Positions 30,425 through 31,311 of a DNA stretch of 64,000 nucleotides are shown one piece after another. A program made the position numbers and the translations under genes. The notes beneath the pieces are model-generated. The model did not search any database and was not told the DNA's origin. It saw nothing but the letters and a program-made list of their open reading frames with translations. Each line of letters begins with the position of its first letter. The first letter of the stretch is position 1. The DNA lies in IMG/VR virus record IMGVR_UViG_3300048762_000248, positions 54,568 through 118,567 of that record. One strand, given 5' to 3'. Origin of the DNA: a virus.

Positions 30425-30430
30425 AGTTAT

Positions 30431-30501
30431 GTGGAGTGAGTATCGGTGGTGATACCGTCGAAAGACGATTTGTGGGAACTCACGATCCCCACTCTACACC
30501 A
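30431..30501 (+). ncRNA. Anticodon-less tRNA-like element 1: acceptor, D-arm, a 4-bp hairpin with a GAAA tetraloop, a degenerate T-arm, and an ACCA end
   Basis: GTGGAGT/ACTCTAC acceptor with one G-U, then A-CCA. D-arm GTAT-CGGTGGTG-ATAC. Hairpin CGTC-GAAA-GACG. T-like GTGGG-AACTCACGA-TCCCC. Confidence 0.45.
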
Positions 30502-30626
30502 ATTTTCCTGCTGGAAAAACGGCAGTCCGGGAACATGCAGTATGGAGCGTCCGAATGGAATCCAGTTGCCCGGTGACTGATAATCCCTCACTGAAGGCGA
30601 AGGGACGTAGGCAGGTTTTGAGTTAC

Positions 30627-30718
30627 GCCGCTTTACTGCCGAAGGCCAAGGCAGAGGTTTTGGGGAATGAAAGACCAAACATCCTTGCATCGGGTAAAAG
30701 ATGACCTAAGCGGCACCA
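30627..30718 (+). ncRNA. tRNA-like element 3: perfect 7-bp acceptor, U8A9, D-arm, an extended central region, and an A-CCA end
   Basis: GCCGCTT-TA-CTGC-CGAAGGCCAAG-GCAG ... CATC-GGGTAAAA-GATG-ACCT-AAGCGGC-A-CCA. Confidence 0.35.
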
Positions 30719-31025
30719 GTTGACAAAGTGTAAATATGTGATACAGTATAAATAGAAACCGTGAGCTTGAGTTAGGCACTGAGCCGCTTGTTGTGGTTTA
30801 TCTTAATGGATAGAATGCCATGTTGCAAAGCATGGCGGTGTGGACTCGATATCCACCATCCGGGCTACATGCACGATTGAAATACATCGTGAACGACATG
30901 AAAGTGGGTGAAGTTCATTGTGATTTTAATAAAAGGATCATATAGAGCGGGGTACACCGGCAATCTACCACTCTGCTATTTGTTCAGCGCCTTTAAGTTT
31001 TGCTCGCTTCAATAGTTTTTTGATT

Positions 31026-31103
31026 TTTTCGGTAGCTTAAGTGTATAGAGCACCATGCGAAGGCATGGAGAAGATGTGGAATAACGACCCACCCGAAAAA
31101 CCA
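31026..31103 (+). ncRNA. Anticodon-less tRNA-like element 2, homologous to element 1
   Basis: Acceptor TTTTCGG/CCGAAAA perfect, then A-CCA. U8A9. D-arm GCTT-AAGTGTATA-GAGC. Hairpin CCATGC-GAAG-GCATGG. T-like GTGG-AATAACGAC-CCAC, like element 1's AACTCACGA loop. Confidence 0.45.
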
Positions 31104-31311
31104 GTTTTGCCTGAGTAGCTTAGTCAGATTGTCGTTGTCGCAGACGGCAAAATTCGTGACTCTGTGAAAGGACAACGCAAAAGGATACGTGACATCCTTT
31201 GACCAATCGGGAACAGTAGCGGTTGACTTTAGCTGGCTTGGAAATAGGAGAAGCCAGCGGCCTTAATTGATGCAAAAGGGTGGTGCAATGCCCTGCGCCA
31301 CCCACAAGATT

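What the first reader, a model, noticed from the sequence alone, without database searches (positions are those of the whole stretch)
30425..31270. ORF-free 850-bp region with anticodon-less tRNA-like elements ending in ACCA
Directly after tRNA-Val lies about 850 bp with no credible ORF. It contains at least three elements with a perfect or near-perfect 7-bp acceptor stem, a discriminator and CCA. Two have a canonical U8A9 (elements 2 and 3; element 1 has G8A9). All have a canonical D-arm. The anticodon arm is replaced by a short hairpin capped by a tetraloop (CGTC-GAAA-GACG in element 1, CCATGC-GAAG-GCATGG in element 2). Elements 1 and 2 share a peculiar 9-nt T-like loop (AACTCACGA and AATAACGAC), which points to a family rather than random decay. 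A similar aberrant element with an ACCA end sits at 36669..36777. The architecture recalls bacterial Y-RNA (YrlA) tRNA mimics and viral tRNA-like structures. These could be RNase P/Z processing punctuation, CCA-adding decoys, ligase substrates, or small RNAs packaged with the MVP-like protein.
Basis: seen in the sequence. Interest (0 to 1): 0.75.

Follow-up and report, generated by a model that had tools for sequence, protein, structure and literature searches.

The report
Phage cluster of tRNA-shaped small RNAs
The gene-free stretch after tRNA-Val in this huge phage is packed with conserved non-coding RNAs: three tRNA-shaped RNAs with no anticodon that end in ACCA, a Ro60-type Y RNA and two other structured RNAs; two of the three tRNA-shaped RNAs define families that no database describes.

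Summary
Three elements (30431-30501, 30627-30718, 31026-31103) have a 7-bp acceptor stem, A73 and an encoded CCA. None is called as a tRNA by ARAGORN or Rfam. Shuffled windows give 0.07 such architectures per 64 kb.

They are not decayed tRNAs. I found syntenic relatives (contigs up to 370-405 kb) through the nearby ligase gene. "E2" (31026-31103) has three homologs in two of those phages: 95% of cells are paired and 9 of 21 pairs change on both sides. "EX" (30627-30718) has two orthologs: 93% paired, 7 of 18 pairs change on both sides, and an 11-nt loop GGAAUGAAAGA is invariant. "E1" (30431-30501) has no ortholog and stays unproven.

Windows 30185-30339 and 30775-30992 are YrlA-type Y RNAs. 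A model built without them scores them at 89.5 and 33.9 bits. The same model hits next to Ro60 genes, always on the Ro60 strand, in 50 of 80 other phage loci. The ACCA elements lack the Ro60-binding stem.

The rest of the region holds two more conserved RNAs. No Ro60 gene lies in the window. Function is inferred: non-decoding tRNA mimics matured by the tRNA-processing enzymes, probably protein-binding decoys or adaptors.

The parts
30185..30339 (+). The terminal stem is UAGGUGAGC[C]G / GUUCGCCUA with a bulged C. Inside lies a permuted tRNA-like module: T arm GGAUG-UUCGAUU-CGUCC, a closed 7-bp acceptor CCUAUCC...GGAUAGG, a D arm, and the hairpin CGCC-GCAA-GGCG.
   Evidence: Model R3, built only from other phages, scores it at 89.5 bits, E 2e-18, over the full model. 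Terminal duplex. Orthologs are L008 17659-17812 and L015 16909-17067, which Rfam YrlA scores at 36-39 bits.
30347..30424 (+). tRNA-Val (UAC) with an encoded CCA. It is the anchor of the syntenic locus.
   Evidence: ARAGORN; Rfam 61.9 bits. tRNA-Val is also present in L006, L007 and L015.
30431..30501 (+). E1, a 71-nt tRNA-shaped RNA without an anticodon loop. It has a 7-8-bp acceptor that includes G3:U70, then A73-CCA, G8A9, a D-type hairpin, CGUC-GAAA-GACG, and a T-like hairpin with the loop ACUCACGA. It has no known ortholog.
   Evidence: cloverleaf is the minimum-energy fold, z -2.56. No counterpart in L006, L007, L008, L013 or L015. R1 gives 9.1 bits.
30504..30620 (+). Conserved structured RNA 'CR-1': UUCCUGCUGGAAAAACGGCAGUCC ... 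CGGUGACUGAURAUCC ... UGAAGGCGARRGGACGUAGGCAGG. Family unknown.
   Evidence: Aligned with L013 16978-17104 and L007 17900-18056: long invariant blocks, 26 predicted pairs, 4 of them with changes on both sides. No Rfam hit.
30627..30718 (+). EX, a 92-nt ACCA-ended RNA. It has a 6-7-bp terminal helix, U8A9, hairpin 1 (5 bp, loop NAAGNNCAA) and hairpin 2 (5-6 bp, invariant loop GGAAUGAAAGA). A third hairpin is present only in this phage.
   Evidence: Orthologs are L015 17157-17232 and L008 about 17406-17482. 92.6% of cells are paired and 7 of 18 pairs change on both sides; slid controls give 28-50%.
30720..30754 (+). Promoter-like sites directly upstream of Y RNA 2. One is TTGACA-16 nt-TACAGT with an upstream TG. 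The other is TATAAATA at 30747-30754, which matches the T4 late-promoter consensus (from my own knowledge).
   Evidence: 10 of 12 matches; the scan as a whole is not enriched over shuffles. Sequence. In relatives, TATAGATA or sigma-70-like sites precede the Y RNAs.
30775..30992 (+). The terminal stem is CACUGAGC[C]G / GUUCAGCG, with GGUUUAUC on the 5' side. It has a T-like arm GUGGA-CUCGAUA-UCCAC.
   Evidence: R3 gives 33.9 bits, E 1e-5, over the full model. Terminal duplex. Positional orthologs are L015 17645-17854, L006 16677-16836 and L007 18713-18874.
31026..31103 (+). E2, a 78-nt tRNA-shaped RNA without an anticodon loop. It has a 7-bp acceptor, U8A9, a tRNA-like D arm (UAGCUYAAGUGUAGAGC type), a 5-7-bp central hairpin with a 4-5-nt loop, and a 4-bp T-like stem with a 9-10-nt loop (AWUMACGAM), then A73-CCA.
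   Evidence: The family has 4 members: this one, L008 17485-17561, L008 16508-16583 and L015 18009-18088, at 71-95 bits. 95.2% of cells are paired and 9 of 21 pairs change on both sides; slid controls give 44-54%.
31104..31262 (+). Conserved larger RNA 'E3': GAGUAGC ... CGUGAC ... hairpin ... CUGACCNAYCGGGAA ... GCGGUUGACUUURGC-hairpin-GCGGCC. The ACCA at 31203-31206 is internal to a conserved motif and is not a 3' end.
   Evidence: Aligned in six phages: 24 predicted pairs, 16 with changes on both sides. No Rfam hit.
31278..31303 (+). G+C-rich hairpin (GGGUGGUGC...GCGCCACCC) that closes the RNA cluster. Relatives have an equivalent hairpin followed by U-rich sequence. In the window no U tract follows.
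   Evidence: Sequence; alignment with relatives. The terminator scan did not call it.
36669..36777 (+). It has a 6-bp acceptor, four hairpins including a long variable-arm-like one, a non-canonical T loop UAAUCAU, and a 7-nt loop CCUUACA without U33. It starts one base after a GNAT acetyltransferase ORF.
   Evidence: z -2.79. GNAT. No relative covers this position, so conservation was not tested.

Best explanation
The 850 bp are not spacer. They form the core of a cluster of non-coding RNA genes that lies on the same strand as the phage's tRNA genes.

The cluster reads in this order:
1. Y RNA 1
2. tRNA-Val
3. E1
4. conserved RNA CR-1
5. EX
6. promoter-like sites
7. Y RNA 2
8. E2
9. conserved RNA E3
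10. a closing hairpin

E1, EX and E2 are small RNAs of 71-92 nt. Their two ends pair into a tRNA-type acceptor stem that is followed by A73 and a genome-encoded CCA. Where the anticodon arm should be they carry short hairpins with 4-5-nt loops, and they lack a canonical T loop, so they cannot decode.

Shown here:
- E2 and EX are conserved families whose stems are kept by compensatory substitutions while particular loops stay fixed.
- Two neighbouring elements are Ro60-partner Y RNAs of the YrlA type.

Inferred:
- The ACCA RNAs are cut out of tRNA-containing precursors by RNase P at the 5' end and trimmed at the 3' end to the encoded CCA, like the phage's tRNAs.
- They accumulate as stable RNAs.
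- They act by binding proteins that recognise the tRNA acceptor/CCA end or body, as decoys or adaptors and not as amino-acid carriers for translation. They probably work in the same RNA-surveillance, tRNA-repair or counter-defence setting as the adjacent Y RNAs.

My confidence is about 0.85 for the identity part (real, conserved, tRNA-ended non-decoding RNAs plus Y RNAs). It is about 0.3 for the decoy/adaptor function.
For: Architecture beyond chance:
- The descriptor scan finds EX and E2 plus 9 true tRNAs, against 0.07 hits per shuffled window.
- The cloverleaf is the minimum-energy fold, with z -2.6 for E1 and -3.6 for E2.

Not tRNAs:
- ARAGORN and Rfam give nothing, even at E<=10.

Synteny:
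- Ligase homologs lead to phages with the same order OmpA-ABC-ligase-tRNA Glu/Gln/His...Met-Val, on contigs up to 370-405 kb.

E2 family:
- It has 4 members in 3 phages.
- 95% of cells are paired and 9 of 21 pairs change on both sides.
- 0 of 500 shuffles reach the observed pairing or covariation score. Slid controls give 44-54%.
- The acceptor sequences differ completely between phages (UUUUCGG, GUCUCUG, GCCCCUG), while U8A9, the D arm and the loop AWUMACGAM are kept.

EX family:
- 3 members, 93% paired, 7 of 18 pairs change on both sides, slid controls 28-50%, and the loop GGAAUGAAAGA is invariant.

tRNA-array layout:
- The ACCA is followed by a 5-8-nt A/U-rich spacer and then the next 5' end. 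This holds in the window (tRNA-Val-AGUUAU-E1) and in L008 and L015.

Y RNAs:
- There are 23 modules in six phages. In each, the 5 nt before GAGC pair with the 5 nt after GUUC.
- RNAalifold predicts 28 pairs, 22 of them with compensatory changes.
- A model built without any window sequence finds both window copies.
- The same model hits beside a TROVE+vWA_Ro60 gene in L018, and in 50 of 80 phage Ro60 loci. All 85 hits are on the Ro60 strand, flanking the gene.

Precedent:
- M. smegmatis YrlA has a 7-bp acceptor, is cut by RNase P in vitro, and is cleaved and gains CCA in vivo (PMC4201824).
Against: - There are no expression or end-mapping data. That the ends lie at the acceptor stem is inferred from structure and from the tRNA-like spacing.
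- Each family has only 3-4 sequences. Alignment A6 was fitted to the model, which favours pairing.
- E1 has no ortholog and may be lineage-specific or non-functional.
- EX lacks a T-type arm in two of three phages, so it is a weaker RNase P substrate and only loosely tRNA-like.
- No partner protein was identified.
- No Ro60 gene lies in the 64-kb window or in any sequence I hold from the relatives (roughly 10 kb either side of their ligase genes).
- E2-like RNAs are absent beside 80 phage Ro60 genes, so a working link between the ACCA RNAs and the Y RNA system rests on adjacency alone.
- E2 and EX were not found in L006, L007 or L013, nor in IMG/VR with the invariant EX loop.
Confidence: 0.62

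Rival explanations
1. Processing punctuation only. On this view the tRNA-shaped elements exist only as RNase P/RNase Z cleavage signals. They would release the neighbouring RNAs (Y RNAs, CR-1, E3) from a long precursor and would have no function of their own once excised.
For: - E2 directly follows a Y RNA in the window (33-nt gap) and in L015 (about 5 nt).
- EX directly follows tRNA-Val in L015 and a tRNA-like element in L008.
- The acceptor sequence varies freely while pairing and the ACCA are kept. A pure RNase P signal would need exactly that.
Against: - Loops that RNase P does not need are conserved: GGAAUGAAAGA is invariant in EX, and AWUMACGAM and the D-arm sequence are kept in E2.
- The central hairpin of E2 is maintained by compensatory changes.
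- The order relative to the Y RNAs differs between phages. In L008, E2 lies between EX and another tRNA-like element.
- Many Y RNAs in relatives have no such neighbour.
Confidence: 0.15
2. Decayed tRNA genes. On this view the elements are pseudogenes left by duplication in a tRNA-rich phage, and their hairpins are accidents.
For: - The phage and its relatives carry several aberrant tRNA-like sequences: 29098-29181, 22709-22790, 36067-36175, L008 17323-17397 and L008 16593-16666.
- E1 has no ortholog.
- The E2 D arm still looks tRNA-derived.
Against: - E2 and EX are kept across phages whose ligases are only 50-59% identical to the window's. Their stems show changes on both sides and are 93-95% paired.
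- All four helices of E1 and E2 are intact, and the cloverleaf is the minimum-energy fold.
- None shows significant sequence similarity to any tRNA in the window.
Confidence: 0.05
3. The ACCA elements are themselves Ro60 ligands. They would be unrecognised Y RNA family members (YrlB-like) that bind Ro60 through the ACGA-containing loop.
For: - They sit among true Y RNAs.
- Bacterial and phage Y RNAs carry a CGAA-type Ro60 motif (PMC4201824; PMC12135203).
- The T-like loops of E2 and E1 contain ACGAA, ACGAC or ACGAU.
Against: - There is no terminal bulged stem of the GAGC[C]G/GUUC type.
- R3 does not match them.
- The E2 model finds only ordinary tRNAs within 4 kb of 80 phage Ro60 genes, where Y RNAs abound.
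- One E2 member has ACGUG in place of the motif.
Confidence: 0.08
4. Aminoacylated carriers. One or more of the elements would be charged by a synthetase that ignores the anticodon. E1 has the G3:U70 + A73 alanine identity set (my own knowledge of AlaRS). The amino acid would then be used outside normal decoding, as with tmRNA or Fem-type transferases.
For: - E1 pairs G3 with U70 and has A73-CCA.
- All the elements keep A73-CCA.
- The window encodes no tRNA-Ala among its 22 tRNAs.
Against: - The acceptor stems of E2 and EX vary freely at positions 1-4 with no conserved identity pair.
- The T loop and the D-loop G18G19 are not canonical, so EF-Tu or synthetase recognition is doubtful.
- E1 has no ortholog, so its G:U may be chance.
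- ARAGORN finds no tmRNA.
Confidence: 0.05
5. RNA cargo or scaffold of a vault-like particle built by the phage's MVP-like protein.
For: An 840-aa protein with MVP shoulder and vault repeat domains is encoded 11.5 kb downstream. Eukaryotic vaults contain small RNAs bound by a TROVE protein (my own knowledge).
Against: - The MVP homologs in LR756500/LR756501 have no tRNAs or such RNAs nearby.
- tblastn with a phage Ro60 (E<=1e-10) finds no TROVE protein in those records or in the window.
- No data link the two.
Confidence: 0.03

Closest known systems
YrlA-type bacterial/phage Y RNAs (Rfam RF02553; Chen et al. 2014, PMC4201824)
   Same: - For 30185-30339 and 30775-30992: a terminal stem made of the 5' and 3' ends with a bulged C in a GAGC[C]G motif (compare GGUCCGA and GNCGAA); an internal module with a T arm, a closed acceptor-like stem and a D arm; same-strand linkage of the family to Ro60 genes in other phages.
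- For E1, EX and E2: only the general theme of tRNA mimicry. M. smegmatis YrlA, once cleaved and given CCA, likewise ends in an acceptor stem plus CCA.
   Different: - The window's Y RNAs score below Rfam's gathering cut-off. Relatives reach 36-40 bits against 69, and the window copies get no hit.
- They keep both strands of the Ro60-binding helix plus a GGGUUAUC block, as vertebrate Y RNAs do.
- They occur as 2-6 copies per phage inside a tRNA island.
- No Ro60 gene lies in the 64-kb window or in the ~20 kb held around each relative's ligase gene.
- E1, EX and E2 have no Ro60-binding stem and are not members.
Bacteriophage T4 species 1 and species 2 stable RNAs (rnaC, rnaD)
   Same: Small RNAs of unknown function encoded inside a T4-like phage's tRNA gene cluster, on the tRNA strand and directly next to tRNAs. 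rnaC carries a canonical T arm and rnaD ends in ...GCACCA. This is the closest analogue in genomic setting for E1, EX and E2.
   Different: There is no detectable homology: neither the E2 model nor the Y-RNA model matches rnaC or rnaD. The T4 RNAs are longer (119 and 139 nt) and are not simple cloverleaves.
tmRNA tRNA-like domain and viral/plant tRNA-like structures
   Same: An acceptor stem with a CCA end and no anticodon. E1 even has G3:U70 as tmRNA does.
   Different: There is no mRNA-like part, no canonical T arm and no tmRNA call by ARAGORN. These are free-standing 70-90-nt RNAs and not the 3' ends of genomes.
Phage Ro60-Y RNA systems (mycobacteriophage cluster C; Thermus phage phiLo, PMC12135203)
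   Same: Phage-encoded Y RNAs that partner Ro60. The phiLo study proposes that its Ro60 and Y RNAs co-opt host PNPase. Ro60 homologs occur in 354 GenBank phage records and at least 83 IMG/VR loci.
   Different: In those systems the Y RNAs lie within a few hundred bases of Ro60. Here no Ro60 was found in the available 64 kb, and the Y RNAs are interleaved with tRNAs and with the new ACCA-ended RNAs.

Membership tests
tRNA (RF00005) | Cloverleaf with a 5-bp anticodon stem and a 7-nt anticodon loop (U33, purine 37) | tested here: not met
   The central loops are 4-5 nt: GAAA in E1; GAAG, GAUUG, AAUA and GUUA(G) in the E2 family. EX instead has 9- and 11-nt loops. ARAGORN makes no call and Rfam tRNA gives no hit at E<=10.
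tRNA (RF00005) | Canonical 7-nt T loop (UUCRANY) on a 5-bp stem, and G18G19 in the D loop | tested here: not met
   The T-like stems are 4 bp with 8-10-nt loops (AAUAACGAC, ACUCACGA). The E2 D loop is AAGUGUAUA with no GG. EX orthologs have no T arm at all.
tRNA (RF00005) | 7-bp acceptor stem, discriminator base and a 3' CCA (encoded in all tRNAs of this phage) | tested here: met
   In two EX orthologs the stem is 6 bp plus a mismatch.
YrlA / Y RNA (RF02553) | The 5' and 3' ends pair into a stem that carries the Ro60-binding motif with a bulged C | tested here: not met
   This row concerns E1, EX and E2. Their termini form a plain acceptor helix, and R3 gives no hit on them. For 30185-30339 and 30775-30992 the feature is met.
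YrlA / Y RNA (RF02553) | Internal tRNA-like module in the order T arm, closed acceptor-like stem, D arm | tested here: met
   This row concerns 30185-30339 (alignment). 30775-30992 has the T-like arm and a long insert, and matches at 33.9 bits. The ACCA elements have the normal, unpermuted order.
YrlA / Y RNA (RF02553) | Reaches Rfam's gathering score | tested here: not met
   The window copies get no hit at E<=10. Relatives reach 36-40 bits against a gathering score of 69. Membership therefore rests on my own model and on the Ro60 linkage.
YrlA / Y RNA (RF02553) | Encoded within a few kb of a Ro60 (TROVE) gene on the same strand | tested here: not met
   There is no TROVE protein in the window or in any locus I hold from the window's clade. 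For the RNA family as a whole the feature is met: 50 of 80 phage Ro60 loci have hits, all on the Ro60 strand, and in L018 the hits abut the Ro60 gene. I could not test whether the window phage encodes Ro60 elsewhere in its ~400-kb genome.
T4 rnaC/rnaD-type stable RNAs | Non-tRNA small RNA gene inside a phage tRNA cluster, on the tRNA strand | tested here: met
   The window also has T4-like gp5 and gp6 baseplate genes.
T4 rnaC/rnaD-type stable RNAs | Sequence or structure homology to rnaC or rnaD | tested here: not met
   With filters off, R2 and R3 hit only the T4 tRNAs and tRNA pairs, not the rnaC/rnaD interval 2909-3172 of L004.
T4 rnaC/rnaD-type stable RNAs | Accumulates as a stable RNA processed from the tRNA precursor | not testable with these tools
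   This needs RNA-seq or northern blots of infected cells.
tmRNA | tRNA-Ala-like domain plus a tag-encoding reading frame | tested here: not met
   ARAGORN finds no tmRNA in the window. E1 has G3:U70 but is only 71 nt and has no reading frame.

The most novel reading that the evidence does not exclude
E2 and EX (and perhaps E1) would be a new class of phage-encoded 'acceptor-end mimics'. These would be stable, RNase P-matured, CCA-ended RNAs that cannot decode. Their role would be one of two things: to titrate or redirect host factors that act on tRNA 3' ends or bodies (for example toxins that modify or cleave the CCA end, or tRNA-surveillance nucleases), or to serve as adaptors for the co-encoded Y RNA/Ro60-type machinery. 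Either way they would be an RNA-based counter-defence module carried in huge-phage tRNA islands.
Probability: 0.15. Interest if true: 0.8.

Novelty: new variant of a known kind. Interest (0 to 1): 0.6.

Why it matters
Phage tRNA clusters have been known since T4 to hold extra stable RNAs, and their function is still unknown after fifty years.

This work gives two such RNAs comparative support. E2 and EX are now defined structures with fixed loops and freely covarying stems. That makes them testable by end mapping, RNase P cleavage, pull-downs and deletion.

It also shows that huge phages carry arrays of 2-6 Ro60-type Y RNAs inside their tRNA islands, far from any Ro60 gene I could find. These Y RNAs have a two-stranded, vertebrate-like Ro60-binding helix. 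This widens the known range of Y RNAs. It also links them physically to tRNA genes and to anticodon-less tRNA mimics, which hints at a shared role in handling tRNA-like substrates during infection.

If the mimics prove to be decoys against tRNA-targeting defences, that would be a new kind of RNA-based anti-defence.

Tried and rejected
- Direct DNA similarity of 30100-31400 to GenBank phages: no match.
- Flanking ORFan proteins (115 aa, 167 aa) as anchors. IMG/VR has no relatives. tblastn against phages found none. The 5.8-billion-protein search returned only the same protein. The contig look-ups returned only the source contig, Logan SRR35911405_28256.
- Ligase as a single-protein query in IMG/VR: nothing. 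The homolog search followed by contig look-ups then worked.
- MVP-like protein as an anchor. Its homologs in LR756500/LR756501 have no tRNAs nearby, so they were useless for this locus.
- Exact tRNA-Val pattern in IMG/VR: nothing.
- Pattern from the E3 RNA. In IMG/VR and in JGI metagenomes it returned only the L007 phage again: L010, L011 and L012.
- Invariant EX loop pattern in IMG/VR: nothing.
- Sequence similarity of the elements to the window's own tRNAs or to each other: no better than shuffled. Self-BLAST gave only weak hints, which nonetheless pointed to the Y RNA repeats.
- A circularly permuted tRNA gene at 30228-30292. Rejected in favour of a YrlA-type closed acceptor module once the relatives were seen.
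- E1 as a member of the E2 family. Rejected by the model score of 9 bits.
- The ACCA at 31203 as a minihelix 3' end. Rejected, because it is an internal conserved motif.
- A complement of the EX loop elsewhere in the locus: none conserved.
- I ran no further search on looking for Ro60 in the clade. With a top-120 list the chance of an informative result was low.
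Full report
**Context**

The window comes from a 79-kb Logan contig, SRR35911405_28256. It belongs to a T4-like phage: it has gp5 and gp6 baseplate genes, an MVP-like protein and radical-SAM enzymes.

ARAGORN finds 20 tRNAs and Rfam adds two more. 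All but one lie on the + strand between 21.8 and 48.9 kb, all with an encoded CCA, and HNH homing endonucleases are scattered among them.

Syntenic relatives sit on contigs of 370-405 kb, so this is a huge phage.

**Checking the observation**

The sequence and an acceptor-stem/NCCA scan confirm three elements in 30425-31270.

- E1, 30431-30501: acceptor with one G-U, G8A9.
- EX, 30627-30718: perfect 7-bp acceptor, U8A9.
- E2, 31026-31103: perfect 7-bp acceptor, U8A9.

Each acceptor is followed by A-CCA. The unconstrained minimum-energy fold of each is a cloverleaf (z -2.56, -1.76, -3.64).

Neither ARAGORN nor Rfam recognises any of them, even at E<=10.

A bare acceptor plus CCA is common by chance: 100 such sites occur in the window, and I estimate about 58 would be expected. 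I therefore scanned for the fuller architecture. That gave 11 sites (9 tRNAs, EX and E2), against a mean of 0.07 in 100 dinucleotide shuffles.

The element at 36669-36777 also exists.

Three qualifications apply. EX has no canonical D arm. The cloverleaf of EX is not conserved. E1 is linked to E2 only by a short loop motif.

**Finding relatives**

The flanking ORFs are orphans. The ATP-dependent ligase 5.5 kb upstream, however, has homologs at 50-92% identity.

Their contigs keep the order OmpA-like protein, ABC transporter, ligase, tRNA-Glu/Gln/His, then tRNA-Met and tRNA-Val. These are L006, L007 (the same phage as L010), L008, L013 and L015.

In every one of them the stretch around tRNA-Val is 1-2.4 kb of mostly gene-free sequence.

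**E2 is a conserved RNA**

L008 17485-17561 and L015 18009-18088 are orthologs of E2. A covariance model built from the three found a fourth member at L008 16508-16583, scoring 60 and then 84 bits.

On the four sequences, 95.2% of cells are paired and 9 of 21 pairs change on both sides. None of 500 shuffles reaches the observed pairing or covariation score. Sliding the 3' partners drops pairing to 44-54%.

The acceptor differs completely between phages: UUUUCGG, GUCUCUG and GCCCCUG, each with its complement. In contrast, U8A9, the D arm (UAGCUYAAGUGUAGAGC type), the first bases of the central hairpin and the 9-10-nt loop AWUMACGAM are kept.

The central loop is 4-5 nt and its sequence is not conserved, so there is no anticodon.

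**EX is a conserved RNA, but less tRNA-like than it looks**

The orthologs are L015 17157-17232 and L008 about 17406-17482. Of the cells, 92.6% are paired and 7 of 18 pairs change on both sides. Slid controls give 28-50%.

The 11-nt loop GGAAUGAAAGA is invariant, and the 9-nt loop reads NAAGNNCAA. The T-like third hairpin exists only in the window.

The conserved core is therefore a 6-bp terminal helix, two hairpins and ACCA.

**E1 stays unproven**

No counterpart exists in the five relatives. The E2 model gives it 9.1 bits, within the range of ordinary tRNAs.

Its loop UCACGA recurs in L008 16508-16583 (AUUCACGAA), which is only a hint. Its G3:U70 plus A73 is the alanine identity set (my own knowledge), but in a single sequence this may be chance.

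**The unexpected part: Y RNAs**

The relatives showed a repeated module: GAGCCG, then 8-11 nt, then GGUUAUC, then a variable core, then AUUUGUUCG. I counted 23 copies in six phages, two of them in the window.

In each copy the 5 nt before GAGC are complementary to the 5 nt after GUUC, with different sequences in every copy. The result is a terminal stem, NNNNN-GAGC[C]G over GUUC-NNNNN, with a bulged C. This is the layout of the Ro60-binding stem of Y RNAs. From memory, vertebrate Y RNAs have GGUC[C]GA...GGGUUAUC.

The core of most copies is a tRNA-like module in permuted order: T arm, closed acceptor-like stem, D arm. Rfam's YrlA model matches five copies over its full length at 36-40 bits, below the gathering score of 69.

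RNAalifold on ten copies predicts 28 pairs, 22 of them with compensatory changes.

A model built from those ten copies, with no window sequence, finds window 30185-30339 at 89.5 bits (E 2e-18) and 30775-30992 at 33.9 bits (E 1e-5).

A pattern built from the motif pulled further viral contigs out of IMG/VR. In L018 the matches lie directly upstream of a 536-aa TROVE + vWA_Ro60 protein, and L021 and L022 also carry a TROVE gene.

Using that Ro60 as the query I retrieved 80 phage Ro60 loci. The Y RNA model hits 50 of them at E<=1e-4. All 85 hits are on the Ro60 strand, just upstream or downstream of the gene.

This is independent evidence that the family partners Ro60. It agrees with Chen et al. 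2014, who found YrlA next to Ro60 in 254 bacterial species and 22 phages, and who showed that M. smegmatis YrlA, with its 7-bp acceptor, is cleaved by RNase P and receives CCA (PMC4201824).

In several of the phage copies the closed acceptor's 3' strand is followed by ACCA, ACUA or ACCC.

**The rest of the region**

- 30504-30620 (CR-1) is conserved in L013 and L007.
- 31104-31262 (E3) is conserved in all six phages, with 16 of 24 pairs showing changes on both sides. The ACCA at 31203 lies inside its invariant motif GACCNAYCGGGAA.
- A promoter-like TTGACA/TACAGT site and a TATAAATA box sit between EX and Y RNA 2.
- A G+C-rich hairpin closes the cluster.

Neither CR-1 nor E3 matches any Rfam family.

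**Are the ACCA RNAs part of the Y RNA system?**

Adjacency says perhaps. The tests say they are not members.

- They lack the Ro60-binding stem.
- The Y RNA model ignores them.
- The E2 model finds only ordinary tRNAs around 80 Ro60 genes.

No Ro60 homolog is present in the window or in any locus I hold from the window's clade. None is present in the MVP-bearing GenBank huge phages either. The 405-kb relative is not among the IMG/VR Ro60 loci, but that search depends on two short peptide patterns.

**How it most likely works**

Shown:
- E2 and EX have conserved structures and fixed loops.
- All these elements lie on the tRNA strand.
- They carry an encoded ACCA and are spaced as in a tRNA array.
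- True Y RNAs lie beside them.

Inferred:
- RNase P makes the 5' cut and 3' trimming stops at the CCA.
- The products accumulate as stable RNAs.
- They act as protein-binding mimics of the tRNA acceptor end or body.

The free variation of the acceptor sequences argues against recognition by a synthetase that reads acceptor identity pairs. The conserved loops argue against a role as mere cleavage signals.

**Comparison with known systems**

T4 rnaC and rnaD share the genomic setting, but neither of my models matches them. I know of no description of anticodon-less, CCA-ended cloverleaf RNAs conserved in huge phages, and two literature searches found none. The searched library is incomplete.

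**Verdict**

The Y RNAs are new members of a known kind. E2 and EX are new families of a known general kind, namely tRNA-like stable RNAs in phage tRNA clusters. Their function is open. Interest is moderate to high.

Noticed in passing
window 29098-29181: Aberrant but conserved tRNA with a CAU anticodon, which neither ARAGORN nor the Rfam gathering scan detected in the window. It has G8A9, a 15-nt D loop, a C:A mismatch at the base of the anticodon stem, and a bulged C in the T stem. Orthologs are L007 18097-18170 (Rfam 39.6 bits), L015 16479-16555 and L008 16707-16782. It overlaps the 3' end of an HNH gene on the opposite strand.
   Followed up: partly
window 42745-45267: An 840-aa protein with MVP shoulder and vault repeat domains. 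It is 38% identical over its full length to proteins in the 735-kb and 462-kb uncultured huge phages LR756501/LR756503 and LR756500. No tRNAs lie near those homologs.
   Followed up: partly
window 36213-36777: A GNAT acetyltransferase ORF (36213-36668) is followed one base later by the ACCA-ended tRNA-shaped element 36669-36777. Some GNAT toxins acetylate aminoacyl-tRNA (my own knowledge), so the pairing may mean something.
   Followed up: no
window 22709-22790: A tRNA-shaped element with an 8-bp acceptor (GUGAUUUG/CAAAUCAC), a tRNA-like D arm, a 9-nt T-like loop and no CCA. A TATAAATA box follows it directly. The E2 models score it at 27-31 bits.
   Followed up: no
window 36067-36175: Another site with a perfect 7-bp acceptor (CGAAUCG/CGAUUCG), U8A9 and ACCA, 109 nt long. 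It overlaps the end of an HNH endonuclease ORF. Its fold z-score is only -0.8, so it may be chance.
   Followed up: no
L008 16416-16499, 16593-16666, 17323-17397, 17568-17652: The L008 relative carries at least four more tRNA-shaped RNAs that are not normal tRNAs. One ends in ACCA, one in GCCA with the loop CGUAUUG, one ends in GCAGCA, and one has no CCA. Each phage of the clade seems to have its own set.
   Followed up: partly
L006 16008-16175; L013 17107-17265; L008 16790-16965: A conserved RNA of about 170 nt: GUGGC...AGCUUCGGCU...GAGAYCAGA...CGACCUGCUAGGA...GCCAC. It sits in the same ncRNA locus of the relatives, is absent from the window, and has no Rfam match.
   Followed up: no
L006 16222-16290; L013 18350-18412: A conserved small RNA: GACCGG...AAUAACAGGGCCGGAA...GGUGUCCACCA. 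It also ends in CCACCA. It looks like a pseudoknot and is absent from the window.
   Followed up: no
L006 16850-16935; L007 19180-19260; L008 18385-18440; L015 18170-18225: A conserved element, GACUCCUGARYGYAUUGUGGAGAAUCCsgcUGGCAGAyCkGGGUyAGAAAArUCUGyC, lies just upstream of the E3-type RNA in four relatives. I did not see it in the window.
   Followed up: no
L013 17466-18087; L015 16915-17061; window 30246-30256: In many of the phage Y RNAs the 3' strand of the closed acceptor-like stem is followed by ACCA (three copies in L013), ACUA (window, L008) or ACCC (L015). This fits descent from CCA-encoding tRNA genes, or cleavage into two-piece Y RNAs as in M. smegmatis.
   Followed up: partly
window 23156-23683 and relatives L006 17780-18319, L007 20817-21254: The tRNA/ncRNA island also encodes translation factors. 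The window has a 175-aa protein with an RF-1 domain (about the size of ArfB or a peptidyl-tRNA hydrolase), and the relatives have an IF3 homolog.
   Followed up: no
window 4958-7336; L006 4416-6347: A LAGLIDADG endonuclease domain lies inside a 792-aa ORF in the window. In L006, Hint plus LAGLIDADG domains lie inside the ABC-transporter ATPase. These are probably inteins.
   Followed up: no
window 30415-30576: A public gene call (53 aa) overlaps the 3' end of tRNA-Val, all of E1 and half of the conserved RNA CR-1. It is almost certainly a false gene prediction.
   Followed up: partly
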